The notes below the pieces were generated by a model. That model was not told the origin of the DNA and did no database searches. It saw only the letters and a list, made by a program, of their open reading frames with translations. Position numbers and translations under genes: made by a program. From sequence record DRR378314_2631: a stretch of 45,962 nucleotides of DNA. The stretch is one strand, 5' to 3'. This document shows, piece by piece, positions 1 through 27,228 of the stretch (positions are counted from its first letter, which is position 1; each line of letters starts with the position of its first letter).

Positions 1-57
1 TAGAGCGCTGCCCTCCGAAGGCAGAGGTCACACGTTCGAATCGTGTCGGGTGCGCCA
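1..57 (+). tRNA. tRNA-Arg(CCG), 5' end truncated by window edge
   Basis: Anticodon stem CTGCC/GGCAG with loop CTCCGAA (anticodon CCG), T-arm ACACG-TTCGAAT-CGTGT, encoded 3' CCA at 55-57. Confidence 0.95.
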
Positions 58-124
58 AATTTCTTCTTTGACTTTCGAACCCAAAAACGGGGAAACTTTG
101 TCCTTCGAGGTCAGCTGTTGGGGT

Positions 125-1225
125 TTAACCAAAGCGTCCCGGGTTGAGCTTGGCAATCACGTCGGAGGAGATCTGGCTATCCTCGCCCAGGACCAAACTA
201 GCCGCTAGCTGAGAGAGCGCCGGAGCGGTTTGAATGCCGTAACCGCCTTGGCCGGCCAGCCAGAAAAAACCCTCCTGCTCTGGATCGAACCCGACCACAG
301 GTGTTCGGTCTTCAACGAATGTGCGAAGTCCCGCCCAGCTATGTTCCAACCGATCAACAGTCAGCGTGGTTGCCTCTTCAAACCGGTGCAGGCCTTCAGC
401 CAGAACCATATCCTCTGGCCAGGCGTCATGCGGATCGACCGGGTCCTCATCCGCAGGTGAAACCATCAGTTTTCCGGCTTCTGGCTTGGCATAAAAGCTT
501 TCAGAGGCACTGACGAAAAGGGGCCAGGTGTCAAAACCGTCGATATCCGGCCGCGGCAGGATTGCGCCGGAGCGGCGCATGGGAATTGCACCGACCTTTG
601 CCGCACCGGCACGCTCCGCGATCACATCGGCCCAGGCGCCCGCTGCGTTAATCAGGATCTTTCCCTCAAGCTGGCCTGAGGGTGTACTGATTTTCCAAAT
701 TCCGTTTTCCCGAGCAATTTCAATAGCTTCGGAATTGGTCCGTAACTCACCGCCATTTTGACGCAACTGCCGCAGATATCCCTGCAGCATACGATCCACA
801 TCGATATCCTGTGCGCTTGGCTCAAAAGCTGCCTTCACAATGGGATCTTTTTTGAGGATCGGAACCAGCTCAACGGCTTCGGAGGGGGTCAGGATCTGCA
901 ACCCATCGGAGCCTTTTACATACTCTTCCAAATCCGCCAGCTCATGCTCACGCGCAAAAAACAGCTCCCCCCTGGGGGTGAGGAGGCTGCTATCGGAAAC
1001 CCCTTCGGGTTTTAAAAAGAAGGGTTCTGCCGCAGCGTTCAGCGCGCGAAGCACCGCATTTCCATAATTTCGAATGAAGATGGCGGCGGTTCGTCCAGAT
1101 GAATGATAACCGGGCGTAGCTTCTGTCTCCAACACAAGAACGCGCGCCTGTTTGGAGATCTCGGCGGCAGCGCTAATCCCTGCCATGCCGGCACCGACCA
1201 CAATCACATCTGCTGTTACTGTCAT
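125..1225 (-). CDS. FAD-dependent oxidoreductase, DAO / D-amino acid dehydrogenase family (D-arginine dehydrogenase-like)
   Basis: N-terminal VIVVGAGMAG FAD motif, GYHSSGRTAA, INAAGAWAD, WAGLR and GQGGYGIQTAP motifs; 4-nt overlap with upstream gene. Confidence 0.85.
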   Translation of the reverse strand: MTVTADVIVVGAGMAGISAAAEISKQARVLVLETEATPGYHSSGRTAAIFIRNYGNAVLRALNAAAEPFFLKPEGVSDSSLLTPRGELFFAREHELADLEEYVKGSDGLQILTPSEAVELVPILKKDPIVKAAFEPSAQDIDVDRMLQGYLRQLRQNGGELRTNSEAIEIARENGIWKISTPSGQLEGKILINAAGAWADVIAERAGAAKVGAIPMRRSGAILPRPDIDGFDTWPLFVSASESFYAKPEAGKLMVSPADEDPVDPHDAWPEDMVLAEGLHRFEEATTLTVDRLEHSWAGLRTFVEDRTPVVGFDPEQEGFFWLAGQGGYGIQTAPALSQLAASLVLGEDSQISSDVIAKLNPGRFG

Positions 1226-2244
1226 TTCGTTTCAAACCCGTTCAGGAAATTCTCGATATTATGTCCAAGATCTTCAGAAAGATAACCACCTTCCTGCACC
1301 AAAAGGGTCGGCAGGTTCAAGTCCGCAATTGCCCTGCCCAATCGGGCAAATCCAGGAGTTGTGATGGAAAGTCCCTGCAGAGGGTCATTCTCATGAGAAT
1401 CCAGACCCAACGCAACCACCAGAACGGTCGCGCCAAATGACTGAATTCGGGCAAGTGCCGGTTTCAATTGCTCCAGATATTCATCATCACCCGTGCCCCG
1501 CGGCAACGGAATGTTGAGGTTATAACCCTCTCCCAAGCCGTCGCCTCTTTCCTGTGCGCCGCCCCAGAAAAAGGGATAAAACCGATCCGGGTCGGCATGC
1601 AGTGAAACTGTCAAAACGTCAGAGCGTTTATAGAAGATCCCCTGGGTTCCATTACCGTGATGAACATCCACATCCAGAATCGCTGGTTTTAACCCCTTTT
1701 GACGCAAATAATCCGCAGCAATTGCTGAATTATTGAGAAAACAAAAACCCCCTGCCAGATCCGCGAAGGCATGATGTCCGGGGGGACGGCAAAGAGCGTA
1801 AGCGTCTTTCTCTCCCGCCAAAACCAAATCTGCACCAGATAAGGCCGTTTGCGCAGACCAATAGGCCGCTTCCCAGGTTCCCTCAGCGATCGGACAGGCT
1901 GTGTCCGCCTGATGATATCCGGCCTGACCAACAGCGGATTTGGGATAATTTGCAGCCCGGCTGTCCGGGTGAATATTGGGAATGACTTCATCGGAAGATC
2001 CCTCAATCCGCTTCCAGCGGGTATGTATAGTCTCCAGAAATGTTAAATATTCAGGCGAATGAACGGCCGCAATCGGACCGCGCCCGTGATCTTCAGGGGC
2101 GCTAAATTCAGCGCCAGCCCGTTTTGCGCCCTCTTCCAGGATGCGGATCCGTTCCGGCTGCTCCGGGTTGCGGAGCGATCGACCATTTGCCATGAAATTC
2201 TGGGGGTCATGCTTCCATTGACGCGCGTCAAATACGGCTTTCAT
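1222..2244 (-). CDS. Zn-dependent deacetylase, histone deacetylase / acetylpolyamine amidohydrolase family
   Basis: HSPEYL, RPPGHHA, GGFCFLNN, DVDVHHGNGTQ, LGLD and QEGGY motifs. Confidence 0.9.
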   Translation of the reverse strand: MKAVFDARQWKHDPQNFMANGRSLRNPEQPERIRILEEGAKRAGAEFSAPEDHGRGPIAAVHSPEYLTFLETIHTRWKRIEGSSDEVIPNIHPDSRAANYPKSAVGQAGYHQADTACPIAEGTWEAAYWSAQTALSGADLVLAGEKDAYALCRPPGHHAFADLAGGFCFLNNSAIAADYLRQKGLKPAILDVDVHHGNGTQGIFYKRSDVLTVSLHADPDRFYPFFWGGAQERGDGLGEGYNLNIPLPRGTGDDEYLEQLKPALARIQSFGATVLVVALGLDSHENDPLQGLSITTPGFARLGRAIADLNLPTLLVQEGGYLSEDLGHNIENFLNGFETK

Positions 2245-2717
2245 TTTCGTCCTCGTATGTTTGAGAAATCATCTCGCTGAAGGATCATGGTCTTGGCCTC
2301 CGTCTCCACAGTAAAACCCAGCCGAAGGTAGGTTTTATAGGCTGCAGGATTACTGTTATAAACTGCCAGTCGGATCATTTTTATCTCTGCGGCGTCATTG
2401 GCAATTGCTGCCGCCATCAATCGGGGGCCAAGACCCTGCCCCCGCATTTTTTCCGCAACCCAGAGATCCGAGACATAGAGCCCCTTTCCACCCTTAGTCG
2501 TTGAAATAAAGGGGGAATAAAGAACAGCACCGACAATTTCCTGATCCTGTTCAGCCACCAACGCCATTGCCGATATGGCGGGCCCGAAAAGCGCCGCCTG
2601 CAATTCATCATCAGTGATCCGATGGGGATCGCCCATATGATCGGACAAGGCTCTTAAAGCCCTGTTCAGAAGGGGAATATCTACCTGCTCAATCGGCCGG
2701 ATAATTAGGTTTGTCAT
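2241..2717 (-). CDS. GNAT family N-acetyltransferase (diamine/SSAT-like)
   Basis: LYVSDLWV-RGQGLG acetyl-CoA binding motif A, N-x-x-A-x-x-x-Y-x-x-LGF motif B; ATGA overlaps at both ends. Confidence 0.85.
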   Translation of the reverse strand: MTNLIIRPIEQVDIPLLNRALRALSDHMGDPHRITDDELQAALFGPAISAMALVAEQDQEIVGAVLYSPFISTTKGGKGLYVSDLWVAEKMRGQGLGPRLMAAAIANDAAEIKMIRLAVYNSNPAAYKTYLRLGFTVETEAKTMILQRDDFSNIRGRK

Positions 2718-3643
2718 TGAAATCTCGTATTTTCTGATCCTTTTAAGGATAACATCTTGCGGGCATCGGCAGGTGTTGCCACATCACGGCCCAGCTCCTC
2801 AACAATCCGCCGGATCTTTTCGACCTGGCTAGCATTGGAGGGGGCGAGCTGTCCCTTATCGATAAAAAGGTTATCTTCCAGACCCACCCGAACATGACCG
2901 CCCATGGTCGCGGCCATGGTCGCCAGCGGTATTTGATGACGGCCTGCCGCCAATACTGAAAATTCATAATCCGCCCCAAACAACTTGTCTGAAATCCGTT
3001 TCATATGAATAAGGTTTTCCGGATCTGCGCCGATCCCGCCCAAAACCCCGAAAACAAACTGGATAAAAAGCGGTTTTTGCACCAGCCTCCGGTCGACAAA
3101 ATGGCGCAGCATATAAAGATGACCAACATCATAGCATTCAAACTCGAAACGGGATCCTCGCTGCTTCCCCATCTGGTCCAGTACATAGGCGATATCGCGG
3201 GGGGTGTTTTTAAAAACCAGATCGTCCGAGTTTTCCAGAAACTCTTTTTCCCAGTTATGTTTCCAGTCACTTATTCGCTCTGCCAGTGGATAAAGCGCGA
3301 AATTCATCGTCCCCATATTGAGCGAACACATTTCCGGCTCAACAATGAATGGGGCGGCAAGTCGCTCCTCCAACGGCATGAGCGCGCTACCGCCGGTGGA
3401 AATGTTGATCACTGCGTCCGACGCCTCGTTAATCATCGGCAAAAATGCCATGAAATCCTCAGATTTTGAGGAAGGCCGGCCGCTTTGCGGATCACGGGCA
3501 TGCAGATGAATAATCGCAGCCCCAGCGTCCGCAGCGGCGATGGACTGCTCTGCAATCTGTTCGCCGGTGATGGGCAGATAGTCAGACATGGAAGGGGTAT
3601 GAATGGAGCCTGTAACAGCACAGGTAATGATGATTTTGCTCAT
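2714..3643 (-). CDS. Beta-keto acid cleavage enzyme (BKACE / DUF849, 3-keto-5-aminohexanoate cleavage enzyme family)
   Basis: IIITCAVTG start, AIIHLHARD (Zn HxH), PEMCSLNMG, VRVGLEDN; start moved to ATG at 3643. Confidence 0.92.
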   Translation of the reverse strand: MSKIIITCAVTGSIHTPSMSDYLPITGEQIAEQSIAAADAGAAIIHLHARDPQSGRPSSKSEDFMAFLPMINEASDAVINISTGGSALMPLEERLAAPFIVEPEMCSLNMGTMNFALYPLAERISDWKHNWEKEFLENSDDLVFKNTPRDIAYVLDQMGKQRGSRFEFECYDVGHLYMLRHFVDRRLVQKPLFIQFVFGVLGGIGADPENLIHMKRISDKLFGADYEFSVLAAGRHQIPLATMAATMGGHVRVGLEDNLFIDKGQLAPSNASQVEKIRRIVEELGRDVATPADARKMLSLKGSENTRFQ

Positions 3644-3653
3644 GGGGAATTGA

Positions 3654-4997
3654 TCAATATGCGTTGTTAAGGGGGAGAGATTCTGACTTTGCAAACATGT
3701 CGAGGGATTTGACCAGAAGCGTCATGATCTCCTCCACCTGCTCATGGGAAATAATCATCGGCGGACAAACAAGAAAATGATCGCCTTCCACGCCGTTCCG
3801 GGTCCGCCGGGAATAAATAATCAAGCCGTTTGAATACGCAATATCCACAAGTTTCAGATAAGCATTCTTCTCTTTGGGAAGCGGCTTCAACGTTTCTGTA
3901 TCCGTAACCAGCTCAAAGGCCAGCAAAAGTCCTTCGCCGCGAACATCACCAATAAACGGATACCGTTTCATCAGATCCTGTATCTGGCCTTTCAGATAAG
4001 ACCCCATCGTCCGTGCATTTGCGATCATGTCCTGGTTCTGAATTTCTTCCAGAACCGCAAGACCTGCGGAACAGGCCAACGGATTTCCGGCATAGGTAAA
4101 ACCGTGCAGAAAGCCACCGCTCTCAATTACGGCTTCGACAATCGGGTCGTCCGCTATCATCGCCCCAAGGGGGGAGTATCCCGCTGCAAACCCCTTGGAA
4201 AATGTGATGATATCGGGCCTTGCATCCCAGTGATCCACGGCAAAAAAGTGACCAGTACGGCCGCCACCTGTCATGACCTCATCATAAATCAGGAGAATAC
4301 CATACCGGTCACAAATATCCCGGATACGCTCCATATATCCGGAGGGAGGCACCAATGCACCGGTGGACGCACCACCAACGGGTTCGACAATAAACGCCAA
4401 TACAGTCTCTGCGCCCTCTTCCTGGATTTTCTGCTCCAGCAGGTCCGCGTAATACTGTCCGGTTGCCGGATCAGAAGGATCTTTTTTATCCAGATACGCT
4501 GTGGGTGCTGCAATTTTCGGCATGGCCTGATACATGGGTGAAAACGGCCGGGTCAGCGGATCATATCCTGTGAGCGCCAATGCCCCGAGCGTGCAGCCAT
4601 GATAACTGGGAGAGCGGGAAATCACCTTCCATCGGCTCTCCTGCCCTGTAACCACCGCATACTGGCGGGCCAGCTTAATGGCACTTTCCACCGCCTCCGA
4701 TCCGCCGGAAACGAAAAAGACCTTGTCCAGGCCGTCTGGTGCATGGGCTGCGACACGTGCTGCCAACTGCTCGGACGGTTCTGTTTCAAAATGCAGGCGA
4801 TAGCCAAAGGTTGATTTATCCATCTGACGGCGCATCGCCTCCAGAACGTGAGGGTTGGAGTGGCCAATGTTACAGACCATCGCACCGGATGATCCATCCA
4901 GATACCGTTTTCCCTCCACATCCCACATATAGACGCCCCTGGCTTCAGCCAATGTGGGGCGCTTCGTTCCTGTCTGATAGAACAGATGGCTGGACAT
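3654..4997 (-). CDS. Class III PLP aminotransferase (omega/beta-amino acid type)
   Basis: YLDGSSG, SGGSEAVE, SYHG, DEVMTGGGRTG, DIITFSKG (PLP lysine), HGFTY; ATG at 4997 overlaps the upstream TGA. Confidence 0.92.
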   Translation of the reverse strand: MSSHLFYQTGTKRPTLAEARGVYMWDVEGKRYLDGSSGAMVCNIGHSNPHVLEAMRRQMDKSTFGYRLHFETEPSEQLAARVAAHAPDGLDKVFFVSGGSEAVESAIKLARQYAVVTGQESRWKVISRSPSYHGCTLGALALTGYDPLTRPFSPMYQAMPKIAAPTAYLDKKDPSDPATGQYYADLLEQKIQEEGAETVLAFIVEPVGGASTGALVPPSGYMERIRDICDRYGILLIYDEVMTGGGRTGHFFAVDHWDARPDIITFSKGFAAGYSPLGAMIADDPIVEAVIESGGFLHGFTYAGNPLACSAGLAVLEEIQNQDMIANARTMGSYLKGQIQDLMKRYPFIGDVRGEGLLLAFELVTDTETLKPLPKEKNAYLKLVDIAYSNGLIIYSRRTRNGVEGDHFLVCPPMIISHEQVEEIMTLLVKSLDMFAKSESLPLNNAY

Positions 4998-6079
4998 CAG
5001 GCGTCTTCTCCGATGGCAACGCAATCTTCATTCCGGAACCGAACTGAAACCTTTTCTCCCTCTTCAAAGGCCCCGCGAGTTGCCAGCATATTCAACACCT
5101 GGAACTTTGTCCCTTTGACATCCACAAAGTAACGAACCAGCTGCCCCTGATAGTCAACCGCTTCAATTTTCCCGTCAAAAGCAGGGCGCCCGTCATCAGG
5201 TGCTGCAGCATCAACCAGCTCAATTTTCTCGGCCCGAAGAACCAGGTAAGCTGTTGCCCTGTCCCGGATTTTGACCATTTGTTCCTCTGCCATGGGAACA
5301 AAGCCGACGATGTCAGAGACCAATCCTACCTGACCGTCCTGATTGGATGGCGTTGCCTCCAAAATATTGGATGTACCTAAAAAATCTGCGACAAAGCGGC
5401 TATTTGGATTGGAATAAATGTCTTTAGGCGGCCCCACCTGCTCAACCCGACCATCGGACATCACAACCAATATGTCGGACATGGCCAGAGCTTCTGACTG
5501 ATCATGGGTCACGAAAACCGTGGTGATCCCGATCTGCTCCTGAATTCGTTTAAGTTCCACACGCATATCTTCGCGCAGGTTTGCATCAAGCGCGGAAAGC
5601 GGCTCATCCAGAAGAAGAACATCCGGCTCGATAACAATTGCCCGTGCCAGCGCGATCCTTTGCTGTTGTCCACCGGATAACTGTTTTGGATAACTCTCCG
5701 CCAGATGGGGCAGTTGAACCAGTTCCAGCGCCTCTTTCACACGCTGATCCATTTCAGCTTTGGAAACTTTGCGGTATTTCAACCCGAAGGCCACATTCTC
5801 GCGAACCGTCTTGTGGGGAAACAAAGCATAATTTTGAAAAACAATGCCCAGATTTCTTTTGTGAATGGGGATGTCATTGACTTTCCGTTCGCCAACGACA
5901 ATCTCTCCTTCGCTGGGGTCCAAAAGCCCTGCAATCATCCGAAGCGTTGTGGTTTTTCCGCATCCGGATGGACCCAGCAACGTCACGAAGCTCCCCTCCG
6001 GCAGGTCAAGCGACATCGGGTGAACGGCAGTGAAATCACCGAATTTTTTTACAATATTCTGCAGTTTGACAGCACTCAC
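4997..6079 (-). CDS. ABC transporter ATP-binding subunit, PotA-like
   Basis: Walker A GPSGCGKT, LSGGQQQR, LLLDEP, C-terminal TOBE-like region. Confidence 0.93.
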   Translation of the reverse strand: MSAVKLQNIVKKFGDFTAVHPMSLDLPEGSFVTLLGPSGCGKTTTLRMIAGLLDPSEGEIVVGERKVNDIPIHKRNLGIVFQNYALFPHKTVRENVAFGLKYRKVSKAEMDQRVKEALELVQLPHLAESYPKQLSGGQQQRIALARAIVIEPDVLLLDEPLSALDANLREDMRVELKRIQEQIGITTVFVTHDQSEALAMSDILVVMSDGRVEQVGPPKDIYSNPNSRFVADFLGTSNILEATPSNQDGQVGLVSDIVGFVPMAEEQMVKIRDRATAYLVLRAEKIELVDAAAPDDGRPAFDGKIEAVDYQGQLVRYFVDVKGTKFQVLNMLATRGAFEEGEKVSVRFRNEDCVAIGEDA

Positions 6080-6107
6080 GGATGGATCCCCTTTTGTTAA
6101 GATAGAT

Positions 6108-6134
6108 CCCTCTGTCGCCGTTGGCGACAGAGGG
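6108..6134 (-). other. Intra-operon stem-loop downstream of the solute-binding protein gene
   Basis: CCCTCTGTCGCC-GTT-GGCGACAGAGGG perfect 12-bp stem, no U-tract on the coding strand. Confidence 0.7.
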
Positions 6135-6142
6135 TCAGTGAC

Positions 6143-7282
6143 TTAGTAGCCTTTTTGGATACGTCCAAATTTCTTGGACCAGTCCTGCTCGTTGCCATTC
6201 CAGTAATTTGGATCCGCAAATGTGAGACCGGATAGAGATCCAGTAGGATCAAAGGCAGGAAGTTTTGGTATCTTGCTGCCCAGTTCAACCTTTGTTGGAT
6301 CCAGAGCTGGTGGATAGTTCTGGCCTTCAGCAACGGCAATGGAGGTTTCCGGCGCCAGCATGAAGTTCAATAGCTCCTCACAAGCCTCCATAGGGGATCC
6401 CTTGATCACAAACAGGCATTCCTGCCAGCCAAAACCGTTTGGTGGGTCCATATATCCAATATCATGACCCTGCTCCTGCAGCGCGTAGACACGTCCGGAC
6501 CAGGCTTCAGTGACATAGATTTCTTCTTCTGCCAGAAGGCTCATCAGCTCCGCACCGGAACCCCAATATTTCAGCAATAGATCACGATGAGTTCTTAAAG
6601 CTTCCCAGATCGCATCCATATCAGTTGCGCCATTGGGATCCTGGCCAGTTTGCAAGGAAGCGTACCAAATCCGGGTGCGCCAATCGCCCCAGCCGCCGAT
6701 TTTGCCTTTCAGCTTTTCTTCCAGAAGGATATTTGCTCCCTTCTCCTTCATTTCATCGTCTGAAATATATTTCCGGTTATAGGCAAGACCGGTTGTGCCA
6801 TAATCATAAGGAACGCAAGATAACTTGCCGTCCGTCACACCCCGGAAAACATCCGTCAGTTTTGAAATGACATATTTCAAATTGGGAATGTTTGCTTCAT
6901 TCAGCTCACTGGTTAGGCCAAGACCGTGGTAGCGGGCATAATCAAAAACCCCGGAAAGATGCGCAATGTTATATTCACCATTTTGACTTGCCTTCACCCG
7001 GGAAATATATTCATCACCGCTTCCAAATGTCCCATCGACCACCTTGATACCTGTTTTCTGGGTATATGGGTCAAAAGCGTGCTTTCGAAATGCTTCGGAG
7101 ACGACGCCCCCCCAACCATCAAACCGAACCTGTTCTGTGGCTGCAAAAGCGTGTTTTGCAAAAGGTGTCTGCAGACCATATGCAAGGCCTGCCGCACCGA
7201 TCAGACCAAGGAAAGACCGGCGTTCCATATCGCCGTTTCTGTATCTTTCCAGTAATCGTTCATAACGTTTTGTATTGTCCAT
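6143..7282 (-). CDS. ABC transporter periplasmic binding protein, PotD/PotF-like, Tat signal
   Basis: RRSFL twin-arginine motif plus hydrophobic helix and AFA cleavage site; WGG, GLAYN, AWSGR, ELLNFML motifs. Confidence 0.88.
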   Translation of the reverse strand: MDNTKRYERLLERYRNGDMERRSFLGLIGAAGLAYGLQTPFAKHAFAATEQVRFDGWGGVVSEAFRKHAFDPYTQKTGIKVVDGTFGSGDEYISRVKASQNGEYNIAHLSGVFDYARYHGLGLTSELNEANIPNLKYVISKLTDVFRGVTDGKLSCVPYDYGTTGLAYNRKYISDDEMKEKGANILLEEKLKGKIGGWGDWRTRIWYASLQTGQDPNGATDMDAIWEALRTHRDLLLKYWGSGAELMSLLAEEEIYVTEAWSGRVYALQEQGHDIGYMDPPNGFGWQECLFVIKGSPMEACEELLNFMLAPETSIAVAEGQNYPPALDPTKVELGSKIPKLPAFDPTGSLSGLTFADPNYWNGNEQDWSKKFGRIQKGY

Positions 7283-7321
7283 TAAATTATCCTCTCTGTT
7301 AGTGGTCTGCCATCGAACCGT

Positions 7322-8107
7322 CTAGCGCCCCTGTTTGTTCGCTAGCCGCCGGGCGATGGCAGCCCCAAGAAGGGGAACCCCGACGGTGAAGAAAATCATG
7401 ACCGAGCCAAGCGCGTTGATTTCCGGAGAAATGGAGTTGCGCAGCATGGCAAAAATCTGTGTGGGGACGGTCTCCACCCCACCCGGTTTCCAGAACAGGG
7501 TCCCTGTGATGTCATCAAAGCTGATGGTGAACGCAAACAGCATTCCAGCAAATACAGCTGGCGCCAACAACGGCAGGGTGATCTGGAAAAACGTCTGAAT
7601 GGGTGTAGCACCCAGGCTCATGGCTGCTTCTTCGACATCACGGCGGATACCGATCAGGCGCGCCTGAACCACCAGAACCACAAAGGGCAGCGTGAAAATC
7701 ACATGACCCATCAGCAACATGAAAAAGCTTTTATGAACGGACAGAAAATTTAGAAACAGCAACAATGCAACCGCCAAGACCACTTCGGGAACCAAAATCG
7801 GTGCGATCAACAAGGTGCTGATAAAATTACTACCCGGAACCTTGTAGCGAACCAGGGCAAGACTGGCCAGCACACCCAAAGTCGTCGAAATCACCGCTGT
7901 CAAAGCTCCCAACAGCAAAGATGTCTTGAAGGCTCGCAGAATGGCATCATTGCCAGCCAGCTCATAAAACCAGTGAAATGAGAAACCGGTGATCGGAAAA
8001 CTGCCGAACTGGTTCGCATTGAAGCTGAGCAGAACAACCACGCCAACCGGCAAAAACATGAACAGATAGACCAGAGCAGTCCATAATCGCACAAAAGTCC
8101 AGTTCAT
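7322..8107 (-). CDS. ABC transporter permease, PotC-like
   Basis: Hydrophobic helices, EAAMSLGA loop, FTISFDD; start moved to ATG 8107 (TAATG overlap). Confidence 0.92.
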   Translation of the reverse strand: MNWTFVRLWTALVYLFMFLPVGVVVLLSFNANQFGSFPITGFSFHWFYELAGNDAILRAFKTSLLLGALTAVISTTLGVLASLALVRYKVPGSNFISTLLIAPILVPEVVLAVALLLFLNFLSVHKSFFMLLMGHVIFTLPFVVLVVQARLIGIRRDVEEAAMSLGATPIQTFFQITLPLLAPAVFAGMLFAFTISFDDITGTLFWKPGGVETVPTQIFAMLRNSISPEINALGSVMIFFTVGVPLLGAAIARRLANKQGR

Positions 8108-8973
8108 TAGCCAAGCCCCTTCATCAATTGCTGCATTCCAAGGAAACGGTTGTACAGAAGCACAATTGACCCAAGAACAGCGATGAGAACCAAAGAAAGG
8201 ACAGAACCCAACGGCCAATCAAGCTGGGTAATAATGGCTTCAAAAACCAGATTGGCGAACATTGCATCCCGCGGTCCACCCAGAATTACCGGCGTAATAT
8301 AGGTCCCGGCCCCCAACACGAAGCAGAGAAGACCCCCAGCCGCCAATCCCGGCATGGAAAGTGGCAAGGTCACTTCCAAGAAGCTCTGCCAGCGGGTTGC
8401 ACCTAGGGAACAGGATGCATCCTCAAGATTCTGATCGATATCCTCAAGGCTGACATATACGTTCAACACCATGAACGGCAGCAAGAAGTGCACAAGACCC
8501 AGAACAACCGTCACTTCATTATAAAGCATTTGAAGCGGCTCATCGATCAGGCCAATCCCCACCAGAAGGCTATTGACCGCGCCGGAAACGCCCAGAATGT
8601 TAATCCAGGACATTGTCCGTATGATGTAACTTATCCAGAAAGGAAGCATCAACAGCAATAGAAGTATGGCTTTGTTGCCTTTGGCTCTGGCAATAAAATA
8701 AGCGGCTGGATACCCCATGACGGCACAGACAATTGTCGTAATGGCGGCTATTCGAAGGGTTTGCAGAAGGATGTCCCGATAGAAAATATCGGTCAGAACC
8801 TCCTGCCAGTTATCCAGATAAAACCCAACCTGATCTGCACCGGTCGCAGTTCTGAGCCAGAAAGAATAAACGATGATAAAAAGGAGCGGAATGATCAGCA
8901 GCAATAGAATTGATGTCAGCGCTGGTGACAATAATATCCAAGGCTGCCGTGCCTCCCGTTTTTCAATTGACAT
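8107..8973 (-). CDS. ABC transporter permease, PotB-like
   Basis: LPFWISYIIRT, LEDASCSLGA, ITPVILGG; ATG 8973 with GAGGGGG SD. Confidence 0.92.
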   Translation of the reverse strand: MSIEKREARQPWILLSPALTSILLLLIIPLLFIIVYSFWLRTATGADQVGFYLDNWQEVLTDIFYRDILLQTLRIAAITTIVCAVMGYPAAYFIARAKGNKAILLLLLMLPFWISYIIRTMSWINILGVSGAVNSLLVGIGLIDEPLQMLYNEVTVVLGLVHFLLPFMVLNVYVSLEDIDQNLEDASCSLGATRWQSFLEVTLPLSMPGLAAGGLLCFVLGAGTYITPVILGGPRDAMFANLVFEAIITQLDWPLGSVLSLVLIAVLGSIVLLYNRFLGMQQLMKGLG

Positions 8974-9019
8974 ATGACCCCCTCGATCAATTGCCTTGTA
9001 GGCTCGCAAAGGAAAAGGT

Positions 9020-9065
9020 ATAGATCAAATAGATACGGAAAATTGTAACTATAGATCAAAACTAT
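9020..9065. promoter_or_regulatory. Tandem LysR-type T-N11-A boxes in the divergent promoter
   Basis: ATAG-atcaaaa-CTAT (9051-9065, perfect dyad) and ATAG-atcaaat-AGAT (9020-9034). Confidence 0.7.
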
Positions 9066-10032
9066 GACTGATATTTCGAACTACCCTTCCCCGGAAAAAC
9101 TGGCCCGGGACTTGGATTGGAACTTGCTGAAAACCTTTCTTGTAATCGCCAAATCCAAAAGCATTACCGACGCCGCAAACAGCCTGCGCCTGCGCCAACC
9201 TTCAGTTTCAGCATCCCTAAAAAGGCTTGAAGACCGACTGAACAAGAAACTTGTGGACAGATCTCCCGGGCGATTTCGTCTCACCAAGGCTGGCGAATTG
9301 CTGGAAAAGGAAATTATTGATATTCACGGGTCTATTCTTCGGTTTGATACGCTGCTTCGAAATACTGAAGATGAAATTCGGGGTCATGTTCGAATTGCCA
9401 TGGCCAGTTATGTGGAATGCCCGCTCTTTGATGAAGCCCTCTCAATTTTTCATAAATCTCATCCCAATGCGACGCTTTCCATTGAAATTTCCGCCAGTCG
9501 CCATGCCATTGAAAACCTGCTGGCTCGCAAAGCCAGTATTGCTGTGTGTTTGGTCAAGGACAGAAGTCCAAAACTGAAATACCAACGTCTGTTTAGAGAG
9601 CATTTTGGTCTTTTCTGCGGACCCGAACATCCCCTGTTTCAACAGACAGACCTGAACGAATCTGATCTCATGGGTCATTCCAGCGTCAGCTTCGTAACCG
9701 ATCAGATGGGAGACGCCCTGCGCCAGGTGGCTTTGATGAGAGCCCATGCAAACCTGGATGATCGCGTGGTTGGGACATCCGCTAATCTGGAAGAAGTCCG
9801 GCGGATGATTATTGCCGGTCTCGGCATTGGCCCGTTGCCAATTCACGTCGCAAAACGGGACGTGGATACAGGCATTCTCTGGCGTCTTCCGCCCTATTCC
9901 AATCCACCGGCAATCGATGTTTATGTGGTTGAAAACCCAAATGTGCAACTAAACAGGGCAGAAACGGCTTTTATCGAAATTATTGGCGCACTTATCGATC
10001 AAACGCCCATCGAAGATCGAATTTACGCCTAA
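9064..10032 (+). CDS. LysR family transcriptional regulator
   Basis: LDWNLLKTF...SITDAA...QPSVSASLKRLE HTH; divergent from the transport operon. Confidence 0.95.
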   Translation: MTDISNYPSPEKLARDLDWNLLKTFLVIAKSKSITDAANSLRLRQPSVSASLKRLEDRLNKKLVDRSPGRFRLTKAGELLEKEIIDIHGSILRFDTLLRNTEDEIRGHVRIAMASYVECPLFDEALSIFHKSHPNATLSIEISASRHAIENLLARKASIAVCLVKDRSPKLKYQRLFREHFGLFCGPEHPLFQQTDLNESDLMGHSSVSFVTDQMGDALRQVALMRAHANLDDRVVGTSANLEEVRRMIIAGLGIGPLPIHVAKRDVDTGILWRLPPYSNPPAIDVYVVENPNVQLNRAETAFIEIIGALIDQTPIEDRIYA

Positions 10033-10114
10033 TTGTCCATCCGCGATGTTTTTAATGCGCCCAGCCGCACAGTTATCAGTCGACGAGGTGCCCGATCCAC
10101 GCTAGAGAGGCTGC

Positions 10115-11230
10115 ATGACAAACACAACAGACATGGAAATCCTTCTGGTGACTATTCCGGGCCTCGAACCCGCACTGCTCGAGGAAGTCCAGGAAAAAGG
10201 ATTTAACAAGCCCAGACCCATCAAAGGGGGCATTACCATTGTTGGCGATTGGGATGCTGTTTGGCGCGCCAATCTTGAATTGCGGGGACCCAGCCGAATT
10301 CTCGTTCGCATTGGCTCCTTTCACGCTGTTCATCTCGCGCAACTCGACAAAAGAGCCCGCAAATTCCCATGGACTGACACGCTGGATCCGGCTCATCCGG
10401 TGAAGGTTGAGGTTTCCTGCAAGAGTTCTCGCATTTATCATCAGAAAGCCGCCGCCGAACGCATCATCAAAGCGTTGACCGAAAGCCATGGGCTGACAGT
10501 CTCAGAGGATGCAGATCTTACGATCAAGGTCCGAATTTTCAGGGATCTTTGCACCATCAGTATCGATAGTTCAGGCGAAGGACTGCATAAAAGAGGTCAT
10601 AAAGAAGCCGTCAACAAAGCGCCCCTTCGCGAAACACTGGCCTCTTTGCTCCTGCGTGAATGTGGCTTTACCGGTTCAGAACCTGTTGTGGATCCGATGT
10701 GTGGATCTGGCACGTTTATCATTGAAGCGGCCGAAATTGCGGCAAATCTACAGCCTGGAAGAGATCGAGCTTTCGCATTCGAAAAACTGAAAAACTTTGA
10801 CCCTGACCAGTTTAAAGCCTTGAAAAAACCTGCTCCCGAAATTGCTGAAACCAAACAGTTTTTTGGATTTGACCGCGATAAAGGGGCCATTGGAATGTCA
10901 GCGCAGAATGCAAAACGCGCCCATATTTCAAATTCTGTTGAGTTTTCTCAGCAAACCATCAAGAACCTGACCCCGCCAACTGAACAGGTCGGGTTGGTTA
11001 TGATCAATCCGCCCTATGGGATGCGAATTGGGGAAATTAATAAACTTTCCAACTTATATATTTCCCTGGGCGCTAGCCTGAAGAACCAGTTCTCTGGATG
11101 GCGGGTAGGACTAGTGACCAATTCGGACAAGCTTGCTAACGCGACAGAGCTTCCCTTTGAAGGAAAACCACTTAAATTCTCCCACGGCGGAATTCCGGTT
11201 CAACTATGCCAGACCAAATCTCTCCCATAA
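10115..11230 (+). CDS. THUMP-domain class I SAM-dependent RNA methyltransferase (RlmL-like, 23S rRNA m2G)
   Basis: LHKRG, APLRETLA, DPMCGSGT and NPPYG motifs. Confidence 0.85.
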   Translation: MTNTTDMEILLVTIPGLEPALLEEVQEKGFNKPRPIKGGITIVGDWDAVWRANLELRGPSRILVRIGSFHAVHLAQLDKRARKFPWTDTLDPAHPVKVEVSCKSSRIYHQKAAAERIIKALTESHGLTVSEDADLTIKVRIFRDLCTISIDSSGEGLHKRGHKEAVNKAPLRETLASLLLRECGFTGSEPVVDPMCGSGTFIIEAAEIAANLQPGRDRAFAFEKLKNFDPDQFKALKKPAPEIAETKQFFGFDRDKGAIGMSAQNAKRAHISNSVEFSQQTIKNLTPPTEQVGLVMINPPYGMRIGEINKLSNLYISLGASLKNQFSGWRVGLVTNSDKLANATELPFEGKPLKFSHGGIPVQLCQTKSLP

Positions 11231-18593: not shown

Positions 18594-18728
18594 CCCCTCT
18601 TTCCTCATTCAAATTCAGGTACAATCGTTTGATCTCAATCGAACATCTTGAACTCATTCCCGGAATAAGGAATGATGTCAAAAGATCGGACCGTCAGAGT
18701 CCGATTATTTTGTTTGGAGGAATTTACC

Positions 18729-19697
18729 ATGGCAGCATCCACTCTGCTCAAAACCCTATCCGGGGTTCTTCTCGCGAGCTCCCTGCTTGTGAGCGGCACA
18801 GCAAATGCCGAAACCCGCGTCACCTATAAATCCGCAAAAAGCACCTCATCTTACTATCAAATGGCGGTCCAACTTGCCGAAGCCATGAAAGCCGGTAGCA
18901 ATGGAGATGTCATCCTGACAATTGAAGAGAGTCAGGGTTCCGTCCAGAATGTTATGGAGGCCGCGGCGCGTCCTGGAAACTATGTCTTTACGACCCCGCC
19001 GGCCCTTGTGCGCCTGGCCGTTGCTGGTAAGGCAATGTTCAAGGACAAACAAAATCCGAAATTTGCCGATATTCGCGCGCTTTTCCCCATTCCATCCCTA
19101 ACCATGCATTTTGTTGTCAGAGACGACAGCGGTATTACGCAATTCAGTGATTTAGAAGGCAAAAGCATCCTGATCGGAAAAGGATCTTTTGGGGCCCGTG
19201 AAGGCGCTAAATATCTGAAACTGTTTGGCCTTGAAGGTAAGGTTGAACTGGCAAATGTTGAATTGTCTAACGCAGTTCCCGCCTTGAAGAATAAGCAGAT
19301 TGATGGTTTTGTCACTGCGGGGTCATACCCCGCCCCCAACGTGATCGAAGCCGCAGCGGGAACGGGAGTTAAAGTCCTATCCTTGAGCGACGAACAAATT
19401 ACGCAAACAAAGCGGACCCGTCTGGTTATTCCAGGTGGAACCTACGCAGGAGTTGATACGGATATCACAACAACCTCGCTACCGGTTATTGCTTATACAA
19501 CGACAAACATGTCCGATGAAACTGCCTACCAAATGACCAAAACCTATTGGGAACAAAAAGCAAAGATGGGTGCTGATCACGCTTGGTGGAAAGGCGTTAA
19601 TCCAAATATGCTGTCCAATATTACAGGCAAAATTCACCCTGGCGCCTTGAAATATTACAAAGAAAACAGCATTAAAGTCCCTGCAAGCGCAGAATAA
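18729..19697 (+). CDS. TAXI family TRAP transporter solute-binding subunit
   Basis: Signal peptide, SYY, GSVQN, IHPGALKYY; ATG 18729 with GGAGG SD. Confidence 0.9.
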   Translation: MAASTLLKTLSGVLLASSLLVSGTANAETRVTYKSAKSTSSYYQMAVQLAEAMKAGSNGDVILTIEESQGSVQNVMEAAARPGNYVFTTPPALVRLAVAGKAMFKDKQNPKFADIRALFPIPSLTMHFVVRDDSGITQFSDLEGKSILIGKGSFGAREGAKYLKLFGLEGKVELANVELSNAVPALKNKQIDGFVTAGSYPAPNVIEAAAGTGVKVLSLSDEQITQTKRTRLVIPGGTYAGVDTDITTTSLPVIAYTTTNMSDETAYQMTKTYWEQKAKMGADHAWWKGVNPNMLSNITGKIHPGALKYYKENSIKVPASAE

Positions 19698-19714
19698 TCT
19701 GTCATTGGAGTCAC

Positions 19715-27210: not shown

Positions 27211-27228
27211 TGAACAGGATGTTTTGCC

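What the first reader, a model, noticed from the sequence alone, without database searches (positions are those of the whole stretch)
125..10032. Candidate complete gene set for aerobic beta-lysine / N6-acetyl-beta-lysine catabolism
Seen: one largely translationally coupled operon (ATGA/TGATG/TAATG overlaps) with a Pot-type ABC importer, class III aminotransferase, BKACE, GNAT acetyltransferase, HDAC-family deacetylase and FAD oxidoreductase, opposite a LysR. Established: the biochemically described Pseudomonas beta-lysine route acetylates the epsilon-amine, transaminates the beta-amine (EC 2.6.1.65) to 6-acetamido-3-oxohexanoate, cleaves it with acetyl-CoA to acetoacetate + 4-acetamidobutyryl-CoA, then deacetylates (EC 3.5.1.51). 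N6-acetyl-beta-lysine is an osmolyte of methanogens and some bacteria. Inference: four of the enzymes map one-to-one onto those steps. The operon may therefore be an osmolyte-scavenging system that automated pipelines would label 'polyamine utilisation', which does not explain the BKACE.
Basis: partly seen in the sequence, partly recalled or inferred. Interest (0 to 1): 0.88.

Follow-up and report, generated by a model that had tools for sequence, protein, structure and literature searches.

The report
Conserved acetyl-protected beta-amino acid catabolic operon
A marine Sneathiella bacterium carries a tightly packed importer-plus-enzymes operon, shared with many marine alphaproteobacteria, that most likely burns an acetylated beta-amino acid such as beta-lysine or its osmolyte form, a pathway whose genes are not named in any paper I could search.

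Summary
Window 125-10032 holds nine co-directional genes (- strand) and a divergent LysR. The order is PotB/PotC-like permeases, a TAT-signal solute-binding protein, a PotA-like ATPase, a class III aminotransferase, a BKACE, a small GNAT, an acetylpolyamine-amidohydrolase-type deacetylase and an FAD oxidoreductase. The ATGA (three times), TGATG and TAATG overlaps are as described.

The module is not a chance arrangement. Of 80 loci holding the closest BKACE relatives, 36 keep aminotransferase, GNAT and deacetylase beside the BKACE. The BKACE clade without these partners is separate (SH-aLRT 99).

Other results fit catabolism of an imported beta-amino acid with a distal amine that is, or becomes, acetylated:
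- The importer is swapped for amino-acid-type ABC systems in other loci.
- The deacetylase is replaced by an M20 amidohydrolase in two loci.
- The GNAT is missing in at least eight loci that keep the rest.
- The GNAT's best solved relatives acetylate omega-amines of lysine analogues and diamines.
- The BKACE falls in the group that takes uncharged C5-C6 beta-keto acids.

Beta-lysine / N6-acetyl-beta-lysine is the best candidate substrate, but no tool result identifies it. The FAD enzyme resembles D-arginine dehydrogenase DauA; its role is open. Nine full-text searches found no description of such genes. Confidence in the specific substrate is about 0.45. Interest is moderate to high.

The parts
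9064..10032 (+). LysR-family regulator, divergent from the operon
   Evidence: Pfam HTH_1 9.6e-18 and LysR_substrate 3.5e-28. No NCBIfam equivalog cut-off is reached. A 58-66% identical LysR lies divergently in the full clusters of other genera.
8974..9063 (.). 90-bp divergent control region with two copies of TATAGATCAAA (about 9020 and 9051); the first fits T-N11-A
   Evidence: Read from the sequence. The consensus promoter scan of 1-10200 was not above shuffles (9 found, 7.8 expected). The operator role is inferred.
8107..8973 (-). PotB-like ABC permease
   Evidence: BPD_transp_1. NCBIfam PotB 202 bits, below the 348 cut-off. ATG start at codon 13 of the listed frame.
7322..8107 (-). PotC-like ABC permease, start overlapping the PotB stop (TAATG)
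   Evidence: BPD_transp_1 3e-14. NCBIfam PotC 201 bits, below the 326 cut-off. Overlap read.
6143..7282 (-). Periplasmic solute-binding protein with a twin-arginine motif (RRSFLG); only distantly related to PotD/PotF
   Evidence: SBP_bac_8 9e-24. PotD equivalog 38.9 bits against a 582 cut-off; PotF 23.9 against 636. Best solved relatives reach only E 7e-14; local matches to GABA-sensor, mannopine and agropine binding proteins. 83-91% identical across orders, more than any enzyme of the operon.
6108..6134 (-). 12-bp-stem hairpin between the binding-protein and ATPase genes
   Evidence: 9 G-C pairs, loop 3. A role in setting the binding-protein:ATPase ratio is inferred.
4997..6079 (-). PotA-like ABC ATPase with TOBE domain
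   Evidence: ABC_tran 5e-39 and TOBE_2 7e-12. TIGR01187 potA subfamily 371.3 bits, above the 355.6 cut-off.
3654..4997 (-). Class III (omega-type) aminotransferase; proposed N6-acetyl-beta-lysine aminotransferase
   Evidence: Aminotran_3 1.6e-101. Best NCBIfam PRK07483 461 bits, below the 485 cut-off. Solved relatives are omega-amine, putrescine and polyamine:pyruvate transaminases. Beside the BKACE in 48 of 80 loci. Substrate is inferred.
2714..3643 (-). Beta-keto acid cleavage enzyme; proposed 6-acetamido-3-oxohexanoate:acetyl-CoA cleavage
   Evidence: BKACE 6.8e-107. NF053538 508.6 bits, above the 430 cut-off; Kce model NF052387 252 bits, below 382. HLH and GLED motifs, E169 and R252 align with the catalytic E171 and R254 of Paracoccus BKACE15. 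Clade-specific F196 and F228. Substrate is inferred.
2241..2717 (-). Small GNAT N-acetyltransferase; proposed omega-amine (N6) acetylation
   Evidence: Acetyltransf_1 2e-14. Solved relatives include thialysine N-acetyltransferase, diamine acetyltransferase 2 and ornithine N5-acetyltransferase, all weak (E 1e-7 to 5e-3). Absent in at least 8 loci that keep the neighbours.
1222..2244 (-). Zn deacetylase of the acetylpolyamine amidohydrolase type; proposed 4-acetamidobutyryl-CoA / 4-acetamidobutyrate deacetylase
   Evidence: Hist_deacetyl 3e-74. Solved 'acetylpolyamine amidohydrolase' chains 3men 2.8e-95, 9gkz, 6phr and 3q9b; PPGHHA, DVDVHHGNG and EGGY stretches are aligned and identical in 3men and 9gkz. 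Substrate is inferred.
125..1225 (-). FAD-dependent amine/amino-acid dehydrogenase resembling D-arginine dehydrogenase DauA
   Evidence: DAO 6e-53. 3nyc/6p9d DauA 3.6e-94 over 344 residues. Present in 21 of 80 loci. Role is open.

Best explanation
The operon is a LysR-controlled uptake-and-catabolism system for an exogenous beta-amino acid that carries a second, distal amine. The best candidates are L-beta-lysine and its osmolyte form N6-acetyl-beta-lysine.

Proposed steps (all inferred unless marked):
1. The TAT-exported binding protein and the PotABC-like transporter import the compound.
2. The GNAT acetylates the distal amine of the free diamino acid. This step is unnecessary if the acetylated form is imported. 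Acetylation stops the 6-amino-3-keto acid from cyclising to a pyrroline (chemical reasoning).
3. The class III aminotransferase converts the beta-amine to a beta-keto group, giving 6-acetamido-3-oxohexanoate.
4. The BKACE transfers the acyl part to acetyl-CoA-derived CoA, giving acetoacetate and 4-acetamidobutyryl-CoA.
5. The deacetylase removes the acetyl group, giving GABA (or its lactam) and acetate.

The DauA-like FAD enzyme is an accessory part. It may oxidise the beta-amine directly (perhaps of the other enantiomer), or it may regenerate the amino acceptor.

Shown here: gene content, coupling, conserved synteny, family placement and conserved catalytic residues.
For: Gene content and translational coupling are confirmed.

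Synteny. Of 80 loci with the closest BKACE relatives, 48 have the aminotransferase, 50 the deacetylase and 43 (+2) the GNAT next to the BKACE; 36 have all three. Among the 36 loci with BKACE at least 70% identical, 35 have the aminotransferase.

Tree of 80 rows (quick tree). 23 of the 25 partner-less BKACEs form one clade (SH-aLRT 99). The labels need 12 changes against a shuffled mean of 32.0, and 0 of 200 shuffles were as low.

Even sample of 401 genomes of the class. 79 have a BKACE relative at E<=1e-90. Of the 12 best places examined, 5 carry the full cluster and 2 carry aminotransferase-BKACE-GNAT-M20.

The substrate looks like an amino acid rather than a plain polyamine. The importer is replaced by a polar amino-acid ABC system (SBP_bac_3) in L005-type loci and on the Parasedimentitalea plasmid, and by a Liv-type system in L043. 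The window's binding protein fails the PotD and PotF cut-offs by far.

Amide hydrolysis is integral. An M20 amidohydrolase sits in the deacetylase position in L086 and L088 and is added in the plasmid locus.

The substrate may arrive acetylated. The GNAT is absent with no room for it in L008, L020, L022, L041, L075, L077, L084 and L085, while aminotransferase, BKACE and deacetylase remain.

The BKACE passes the NF053538 cut-off. A characterised member of that group takes uncharged C5-C6 beta-keto acids (passages of PMC11961710). The catalytic Glu and Arg are conserved.

The GNAT's solved relatives acetylate omega-amines of lysine analogues and diamines. The deacetylase is closest to solved acetylpolyamine amidohydrolases.

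No lysine 2,3-aminomutase domain was found in 5 of 5 cluster-bearing genomes, which fits an imported rather than self-made beta-amino acid.

Recalled, not seen in any call: the Pseudomonas B4 pathway (EC 2.6.1.65, the cleavage enzyme, EC 3.5.1.51).
Against: No result identifies the substrate.

- The BKACE group name rests on in-vitro substrates without an acetamido tail.
- The aminotransferase is closest to omega-amine, putrescine and polyamine transaminases, and the deacetylase to polyamine deacetylases. A polyamine-derived substrate is therefore not excluded.
- N6-acetyl-beta-lysine is documented in the papers seen mainly for methanogens and a few bacteria. That is an odd match for an operon common in pelagic Rhodobacterales.
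- The GNAT is not of the AblB type: no such model appears among its 12 NCBIfam hits.
- The FAD enzyme keeps the residues that in DauA bind an alpha-carboxylate and a cationic side chain (the residue roles are recalled). This suits D-alpha-amino acids better than an acetylated beta-amino acid.
- No thioesterase or CoA-transferase for the acyl-CoA product is encoded in the operon.
- M20 enzymes usually act on N-acyl groups close to a carboxylate, which is not obviously true of 4-acetamidobutyrate.
Confidence: 0.45

Rival explanations
1. The chemistry is the same (import, optional N-acetylation, beta-amine removal, BKACE cleavage, deacylation), but the natural substrate is another beta-amino acid with a distal amine or N-acyl group. 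Examples are 3,5-diaminohexanoate, a longer or shorter homologue of beta-lysine, or an undescribed marine metabolite.
For: All the synteny and family evidence supports the reaction logic, not the compound. The BKACE group accepts several C5-C6 uncharged beta-keto acids, including 3,5-dioxohexanoate. The operon is common in pelagic Rhodobacterales and Stappiaceae, whereas known N6-acetyl-beta-lysine producers in the papers seen are mostly methanogens. Accessory genes vary between loci: M20 and alanine racemase, DauA-like enzyme.
Against: Beta-lysine is the only abundant natural beta,omega-diamino acid that I know of (recalled). Protective acetylation is chemically needed only when the distal amine can form a 5- or 6-membered imine with the 3-keto group. 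That excludes 3,5-diaminohexanoate.
Confidence: 0.27
2. It is an acetyl-polyamine / polyamine utilisation operon. The Pot-type importer takes up (acetyl)polyamines, the deacetylase and GNAT interconvert acetylated forms, the aminotransferase acts on a terminal amine, and the BKACE handles a beta-keto acid formed further down or has an unrelated role.
For: The PotA subfamily cut-off is passed, and the permeases are PotB/PotC-like. The deacetylase matches solved acetylpolyamine amidohydrolases at 1e-80 to 1e-95. The aminotransferase matches putrescine and polyamine:pyruvate transaminases at about 1e-78.
Against: The BKACE is the core of the conserved module and is translationally coupled between aminotransferase and GNAT. 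No aldehyde dehydrogenase, needed after transamination of a polyamine, lies in the operon or emerged as a conserved neighbour. The importer is exchanged for amino-acid ABC systems in other loci. The binding protein fails the PotD and PotF cut-offs.
Confidence: 0.13
3. It is a catabolic system for D- or racemic basic amino acids. The DauA-like dehydrogenase (with a racemase in some loci) is the entry enzyme, and the other enzymes process a downstream intermediate.
For: The FAD enzyme matches D-arginine dehydrogenase at 3.6e-94, with the aligned substrate-binding positions kept except one (residue roles recalled). An alanine-racemase-family gene closes the plasmid variant. Amino-acid-type importers occur in other loci.
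Against: The FAD gene is present in only 21 of 80 loci, and in 13 of the 20 full clusters, so it is accessory. Oxidation of an alpha-amino acid gives an alpha-keto acid, which is not a BKACE substrate. In L091 and L042 the FAD gene accompanies the BKACE where the aminotransferase is missing. This suggests it makes the beta-keto acid.
Confidence: 0.07
4. The enzymes run in the biosynthetic direction: acyl-CoA plus acetoacetate gives a beta-keto acid, then a beta-amino acid. This would make an acetylated beta-amino acid solute without a lysine aminomutase.
For: BKACE reactions are reversible Claisen-type transfers (generic scheme). No aminomutase was found in 5 of 5 genomes.
Against: The enzymes are co-transcribed with a binding-protein-dependent importer under a divergent LysR. 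A deacetylase lies in the same operon. The importer type varies while the enzymes stay.
Confidence: 0.03

Closest known systems
L-beta-lysine degradation of 'Pseudomonas B4' (Barker laboratory, 1970s-1981; EC 2.6.1.65, the 3-keto-6-acetamidohexanoate cleavage enzyme, EC 3.5.1.51). Recalled; no paper on it was available.
   Same: Four reaction types in the same logical order: N6-acetylation, transamination of the beta-amine, acetyl-CoA-dependent cleavage to acetoacetate plus 4-acetamidobutyryl-CoA, and deacetylation. Each has a plausible enzyme family in the operon.
   Different: Genes were never assigned to that pathway as far as my searches show. The organism here is a marine alphaproteobacterium. 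The operon adds an importer, a LysR and a DauA-like flavoenzyme. None of the activities is shown here.
[quoted passage not shown]
   Same: Same Pfam family and Zn-dependent TIM-barrel fold. Same acetyl-CoA-dependent beta-keto acid cleavage yielding acetoacetate.
   Different: 252 bits against a cut-off of 382. 2y7d ranks only sixth among solved relatives at 2e-48. No kamA, kdd or kal partners are present. The operon context is aerobic import and catabolism.
Paracoccus denitrificans BKACE15 (PDB 8rio/8rip/9hnf) and NCBIfam NF053538 '3,5-dioxohexanoate:acetyl-CoA acetone transferase'
   Same: The window's BKACE passes the equivalog cut-off (508.6 against 430). It aligns end to end at about 1e-112. 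It keeps the catalytic Glu and the Arg.
   Different: The physiological role of BKACE15 is stated to be unknown, and its context suggests aromatic degradation. The window's clade has F196 and F228 where BKACE15 and 3e49 have Thr and Trp, and it sits among nitrogen-handling genes. One genome (G002) has two family members in different places.
Bacterial acetylpolyamine amidohydrolases (PDB 3men, 9gkz, 6phr, 3q9b)
   Same: Hits of 2.8e-95 to 1.3e-80. The aligned PPGHHA, DVDVHHGNG and EGGY stretches are kept.
   Different: The proposed substrate ends in a CoA thioester or carboxylate rather than an amine. It sits in an operon with a BKACE. It is replaceable by an M20 amidohydrolase.
PotABCD / PotFGHI polyamine importers
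   Same: Same four-component architecture. The ATPase passes the potA subfamily cut-off.
   Different: The binding protein scores 38.9 against 582 (PotD) and 23.9 against 636 (PotF), and the permeases are below their cut-offs. It has a TAT signal. Other loci swap in amino-acid importers.
Pseudomonas aeruginosa D-arginine dehydrogenase DauA (PDB 3nyc, 6p9d)
   Same: 3.6e-94 over 344 residues. The aligned positions for native Y53, E87, R222, Y249 and R305 are identical (residue roles recalled).
   Different: The position of H48 is Ile. There is no DauB partner. It sits at the end of a BKACE operon and, in two loci, accompanies the BKACE where the aminotransferase is missing.

Membership tests
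BKACE (Pfam PF05853), active members | Full-length match to the family model | tested here: met
   6.8e-107, model positions 1-274 of 274.
BKACE (Pfam PF05853), active members | Zn-binding His-x-His and Glu/Asp, the catalytic Glu (E171 of BKACE15) and the Arg (R254) | tested here: met
   Identical in the alignments to 3e49, 3e02 and 8rio: H46-L-H48, E169 in RFEFECYD, and R252 and E256-D257 in GGHVRVGLEDN. The roles of E171 and R254 come from PMC11961710 section 9. The Zn-ligand assignment is recalled.
NCBIfam NF053538, 3,5-dioxohexanoate:acetyl-CoA acetone transferase (equivalog) | Score above the curated cut-off | tested here: met
   508.6 bits against 430.
NCBIfam NF053538, 3,5-dioxohexanoate:acetyl-CoA acetone transferase (equivalog) | Physiological substrate is 3,5-dioxohexanoate | not testable with these tools
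   The role of the characterised member is stated as unknown. Nothing in the operon makes a triketide acid.
[quoted passage not shown] | Score above the curated cut-off | tested here: not met
   252.1 bits against 382.
[quoted passage not shown] | Glu that binds the 5-amino group (Glu14 of PDB 2Y7F, per PMC10470551) | not tested
   No alignment to 2y7d was printed: it ranks sixth and only five alignments can be shown.
Acetylpolyamine amidohydrolase / class II HDAC-like Zn hydrolases | Full Hist_deacetyl domain with the His-His pair, Asp-His-Asp metal site and catalytic Tyr | tested here: met
   PF00850 3.3e-74. The PPGHHA, DVDVHHGNG, GLD and EGGY stretches are identical in the alignments to 3men and 9gkz. 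Residue roles are recalled.
Acetylpolyamine amidohydrolase / class II HDAC-like Zn hydrolases | Activity on N-acetylated polyamines | not testable with these tools
   No NCBIfam model matched this protein (0 families).
PotD / PotF polyamine-binding proteins | Score above the equivalog cut-offs | tested here: not met
   PotD 38.9 against 582; PotF 23.9 against 636; YdcS 36.5 against 725.
PotA polyamine ABC ATPase (TIGR01187 subfamily) | Score above the cut-off | tested here: met
   371.3 against 355.6. The PotA equivalog PRK09452 gives 365 against 482, not met.
AblB-type beta-lysine N6-acetyltransferase | Match to an AblB family model | tested here: not met
   None of the 12 NCBIfam families hit by the GNAT is an AblB model. 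That the library holds such a model is recalled, not checked.
DauA, FAD-dependent D-arginine dehydrogenase | Close full-length similarity, with carboxylate-binding Arg/Tyr and the side-chain-binding Glu | tested here: inconclusive
   3.6e-94. Y53, E87, R222, Y249 and R305 are identical, and H48 is replaced by Ile. Residue roles are recalled. There is no curated model or cut-off, and no DauB partner.
Pseudomonas B4 beta-lysine pathway | Measured activities: N6-acetyl-beta-lysine transaminase, cleavage to acetoacetate plus 4-acetamidobutyryl-CoA, and deacetylase-thiolesterase | not testable with these tools
   Only enzyme families can be matched to the steps.

The most novel reading that the evidence does not exclude
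This operon supplies the long-missing genes for three orphan activities of aerobic beta-lysine catabolism: N6-acetyl-beta-lysine aminotransferase, 6-acetamido-3-oxohexanoate cleavage enzyme and 4-acetamidobutyryl-CoA deacetylase. It also marks a widespread sink for the osmolyte N6-acetyl-beta-lysine in marine alphaproteobacteria. In addition, the DauA-like flavoenzyme would be a new beta-amino-acid dehydrogenase that can stand in for the aminotransferase, as the aminotransferase-less loci L042 and L091 suggest.
Probability: 0.35. Interest if true: 0.78.

Novelty: new variant of a known kind. Interest (0 to 1): 0.62.

Why it matters
If the assignment holds, a pathway known only from enzyme work of the 1970s-80s gains its genes, and three orphan enzyme activities become annotatable.

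A BKACE subgroup now named after an in-vitro substrate would get a physiological role.

A conserved importer-plus-enzyme module would be read as consumption of a beta-amino-acid osmolyte. The module was found in at least 8 of 401 sampled species of the class, and on plasmids. That adds a defined link between solute producers and heterotrophs in marine carbon and nitrogen cycling.

It also gives a clean natural example of protect/deprotect logic in catabolism, with interchangeable deacylases and importers.

All of this is directly testable with purchasable or easily made substrates.

Tried and rejected

Papers not held:
- Bastard et al. 2014 and Bellinzoni et al. 2011. I could not see whether the BKACE screen included 6-acetamido-3-oxohexanoate, or whether this context was already noted.
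- The main text of the NetSyn preprint mentions no aminotransferase, histone-deacetylase or polyamine context. Its supplementary data, which may list this context, were closed.

Literature searches:
- Compound and enzyme names returned only metabolomics or unrelated chemistry.
- 'beta-lysine' with 'Pseudomonas B4' gave 0.
- BKACE name with 'acetylpolyamine' gave 0.
- 'acetylpolyamine' with 'pomeroyi' gave 0.
- BKACE name with 'histone deacetylase family' and 'aminotransferase' gave 0.
- One search was swamped by HDAC-degradation papers.
- Of 43 papers with 'acetyl-beta-lysine', the 40 listed deal by title and abstract with synthesis or accumulation, not aerobic catabolism.

Analyses that led nowhere:
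- Greedy ORF clustering of the 80 loci found no further widely conserved partner. It was noisy with antisense shadow frames.
- An endogenous lysine-to-beta-lysine route is rejected for now: no LAM_C domain in 5 of 5 cluster genomes, while controls rang in 4 of 14.
- Promoter and terminator scans were not above shuffles.
- ARAGORN found no tRNA, although Rfam shows a truncated one.
- The acetamidase-family gene near L024 lies about 800 nt downstream behind two small frames. I give it little weight.
- I could not place F196 and F228 in the pocket: the structure paper's text does not mention the equivalent residues.
- The careful tree search did not finish, so the quick tree was used.

Full report
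**What is there**

Window 125-10032 holds nine genes on the - strand and a divergent LysR. In transcription order they are:
- PotB-like permease, 8973-8107
- PotC-like permease, 8107-7322
- solute-binding protein, 7282-6143, with an RRSFLG twin-arginine motif
- PotA-like ATPase with TOBE domain, 6079-4997
- class III aminotransferase, 4997-3654
- BKACE, 3643-2714
- GNAT, 2717-2241
- HDAC-fold deacetylase, 2244-1222
- DAO-family FAD oxidoreductase, 1225-125

There are three ATGA overlaps (BKACE/GNAT, GNAT/deacetylase, deacetylase/FAD enzyme), one TGATG (ATPase/aminotransferase) and one TAATG (PotB/PotC).

The two listed TTG frames that made the BKACE and the aminotransferase appear to overlap by 41 nt are not needed. 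Both have ATG starts further in, which leaves a 10-nt gap.

The flanks are unrelated. An RlmL-type methyltransferase follows LysR. The 3' part of a tRNA gene lies at 1-54. By its closest protein relatives the organism is a Sneathiella; the BKACE is 94% identical to that of S. limimaris.

**Is the arrangement meaningful?**

I fetched the 80 loci with the closest BKACE relatives (61-90% identity) and located relatives of all ten window proteins in them.

Beside the BKACE:
- 48 of 80 loci have the aminotransferase
- 50 have the deacetylase
- 43 have the GNAT, plus 2 divergent copies found by eye
- 21 have the FAD enzyme
- 36 have aminotransferase, GNAT and deacetylase together
- 20 have these together with the Pot-type importer and the divergent LysR

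Several loci are cut by contig ends, so these are lower bounds.

The association follows the BKACE tree (80 rows; L048 was dropped because its match was fragmentary; quick tree only). 23 of the 25 BKACEs without partners form one clade with SH-aLRT 99 (Azospirillum, Roseomonas and others). The remaining rows almost all have a partner. The labels need 12 changes against a shuffled mean of 32.0, and 0 of 200 shuffles were as low.

Six alignment positions separate the two sides (55 rows against 23). Among them are F196 against Thr and F228 against Trp. The solved relatives 3e49 and 8rio carry Thr and Trp there. Whether these positions line the pocket could not be checked.

In an even sample of 401 genomes of the class, 79 hold a BKACE relative at E<=1e-90 (the tally includes the unpublished genome G245, on which nothing else rests). 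I examined only the 12 best-scoring places:
- 5 carry the full cluster
- 2 carry aminotransferase-BKACE-GNAT followed by an M20 amidohydrolase
- 1 carries LysR, importer, BKACE and the FAD enzyme without an aminotransferase
- 4 have no partners

Counting the genome of L002 as well, at least 8 of 401 sampled species have an aminotransferase-BKACE-deacylase module.

**What the variants say**

Importer. The importer is exchangeable. Loci of the L005 type and a Parasedimentitalea marina plasmid use a polar amino-acid ABC system with an SBP_bac_3 binding protein. L043 uses a Liv-type system. The window's own binding protein is far below the PotD and PotF cut-offs. It is related to solved PotD/PotF proteins only at E about 1e-13, with local matches to GABA- and opine-binding members of the same fold class. 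This points to an amino-acid-like, probably cationic or zwitterionic, ligand rather than a plain polyamine.

Deacylase. The deacylase is exchangeable but the step is kept. An M20 amidohydrolase directly follows the GNAT in L086 and L088, where the HDAC-type enzyme is missing. One is added after the HDAC-type enzyme on the plasmid.

GNAT. The GNAT is dispensable. In L008, L020, L022, L041, L075, L077, L084 and L085 the deacetylase gene follows the BKACE with no room for a GNAT. This is what one expects if the compound can be taken up already acetylated.

FAD enzyme. It is accessory (21 of 80 loci). In Hoeflea sp. BRH_c9 (L042) and in L091 it is present where the aminotransferase is absent. In L091 the operon is just importer, BKACE and FAD enzyme. 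That suggests the flavoenzyme can itself make the beta-keto acid.

**What the individual proteins say**

BKACE. It passes the NCBIfam equivalog NF053538 (508.6 bits, cut-off 430) and fails the lysine-fermentation Kce model (252 against 382). Its solved relatives are two structural-genomics DUF849 entries and Paracoccus BKACE15. [quoted passage not shown] The catalytic E171 and the R254 named in that paper (section 9) are conserved here as E169 and R252. So this is an active BKACE of the group that takes uncharged C5-C6 tails. An N-acetylated aminoalkyl tail fits that; a free amine would not obviously fit.

Deacetylase. It is closest to solved acetylpolyamine amidohydrolases (2.8e-95 to 1.3e-80), with the active-site stretches intact.

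GNAT. Its solved relatives, all weak, include thialysine N-acetyltransferase, diamine acetyltransferase 2 and ornithine N5-acetyltransferase. These enzymes acetylate omega-amines of lysine analogues and diamines.

Aminotransferase. It belongs with the omega-amine:pyruvate transaminases. By recall, that group includes enzymes active on short beta-amino acids.

FAD enzyme. It matches P. aeruginosa D-arginine dehydrogenase DauA at 3.6e-94. The aligned positions of native Y53, E87, R222, Y249 and R305 are identical, and H48 is replaced by Ile. The roles of these residues are recalled, not taken from a call.

**Most likely mechanism**

1. Import.
2. Optional acetylation of a distal amine.
3. Conversion of the beta-amine to a ketone.
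4. Acetyl-CoA-dependent cleavage to acetoacetate plus an acetamido-acyl-CoA.
5. Deacetylation.

The chemical reason for the acetyl group is that a 6-amino-3-oxo acid would close to a five-membered cyclic imine. This reasoning favours a 3,6- (or 3,7-) diamino acid, and beta-lysine is the known natural one.

Five of five cluster genomes lack a lysine 2,3-aminomutase domain. The substrate is therefore imported, not made from lysine.

N6-acetyl-beta-lysine is a documented osmolyte of methanogens (PMC1224877, passages). [quoted passage not shown]

I put the reaction logic at about 0.7 and the specific substrate at about 0.45.

For the FAD enzyme I see two readings:
- Direct oxidation of the beta-amine, perhaps of the enantiomer the aminotransferase does not take. 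The aminotransferase-less loci support this.
- Regeneration of pyruvate from alanine through D-alanine. This is suggested by the alanine-racemase-family gene that closes the plasmid variant.

Neither reading is tested.

**What speaks against it**

- No computation identifies the ligand.
- The aminotransferase and deacetylase are as close to polyamine enzymes as to anything else.
- The known producers of the osmolyte are not obviously abundant where Rhodobacterales live.
- The GNAT is unrelated to the biosynthetic AblB type, as far as the NCBIfam hits show.
- The operon has no enzyme to release CoA from the acyl-CoA product, unless the deacetylase does it. By recall, this was reported for the Pseudomonas enzyme.
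- The DauA-like enzyme looks built for D-alpha-amino acids with a cationic side chain.

**Comparison with what is known, and novelty**

All component families are known, and the reaction sequence was worked out biochemically decades ago (recalled). Assigning genes to it appears to be new.

Nine full-text searches found no paper describing genes for beta-lysine or N6-acetyl-beta-lysine catabolism, and none describing this gene context. The key BKACE paper and all supplements could not be read, so prior mention there is possible.

RefSeq labels the enzymes generically. Some pipelines already call the BKACE '3,5-dioxohexanoate:acetyl-CoA acetone transferase'. That name reflects an in-vitro substrate and is probably not the physiological one here.

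I rate it a new variant of a known kind, with interest 0.62.

Noticed in passing
window 1-54 (+): The 3' two-thirds of a tRNA gene, cut by the window start (Rfam RF00005, 38.2 bits, model 19-71). ARAGORN misses it. It is convergent with the end of the operon. The closest relative (L081) has no tRNA there and instead has sigma-70/FecR/TonB-receptor genes.
   Followed up: partly
window 125-2717 compared with L081 10229-12823: Against the closest relative, the FAD enzyme is only 65% identical and the GNAT 74%, while the other eight proteins are 89-97% identical. The distal end of the operon, next to the tRNA, may have been exchanged by recombination.
   Followed up: no
window 6108-6134 (-): A perfect 12-bp stem (9 G-C pairs, loop 3) lies in the 63-nt gap between the binding-protein and ATPase genes. 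It may be an mRNA-stability or attenuation element that raises the binding-protein share.
   Followed up: no
window 8974-9063: Two copies of TATAGATCAAA, about 31 bp apart, lie in the divergent LysR/operon control region. The first fits T-N11-A.
   Followed up: no
window 6143-7282 compared with loci L003-L035: The binding protein (83-91%) and the permeases (81-88%) are more conserved between Sneathiella and Rhodobacterales/Stappiaceae than the enzymes: BKACE 72-77%, aminotransferase 65-73%, ATPase 64-68%. This suggests one shared ligand, horizontal spread, or both.
   Followed up: no
L091 8605-14921: A minimal variant: divergent LysR, Pot-like importer (binding protein 59% identical), BKACE (62%) and a DauA-like FAD enzyme (48%). 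It has no aminotransferase, GNAT or adjacent deacetylase.
   Followed up: partly
L093 (Parasedimentitalea marina plasmid pW43C) 3505-13303: A plasmid-borne variant: amino-acid ABC importer, LysR, aminotransferase, BKACE, HDAC-type deacetylase, M20 amidohydrolase and an alanine-racemase-family gene. It has no GNAT.
   Followed up: partly
L053 6292-12074 and L050: BKACE plus HDAC-type deacetylase without an aminotransferase. They are preceded by a protein with an N,N-dimethylformamidase beta-subunit-like domain and an ABC ATPase fusion. This is possibly a different amide-handling pathway that uses the same pair.
   Followed up: no
window 18672-21481 (+): A TAXI-type TRAP transporter: an NMT1_3 binding protein followed by a 588-aa fused DctM-type membrane protein.
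   Followed up: no
window 24611-27996 (+): An AtuA-family protein (7e-163) with an enoyl-CoA hydratase and a GntR/UTRA regulator. The substrate is unknown.
   Followed up: no
window 34024-40420 (-): A 1140-aa UvrD-type helicase with a C-terminal PD-(D/E)XK nuclease domain, overlapping a 993-aa PD-(D/E)XK protein. This looks like an AddA/AddB-type pair.
   Followed up: no
G002 C9:12922-13848: Roseibium sediminicola has a second BKACE that passes the NF053538 cut-off (536 bits), away from the cluster copy. The curated family therefore spans more than one genomic context.
   Followed up: no
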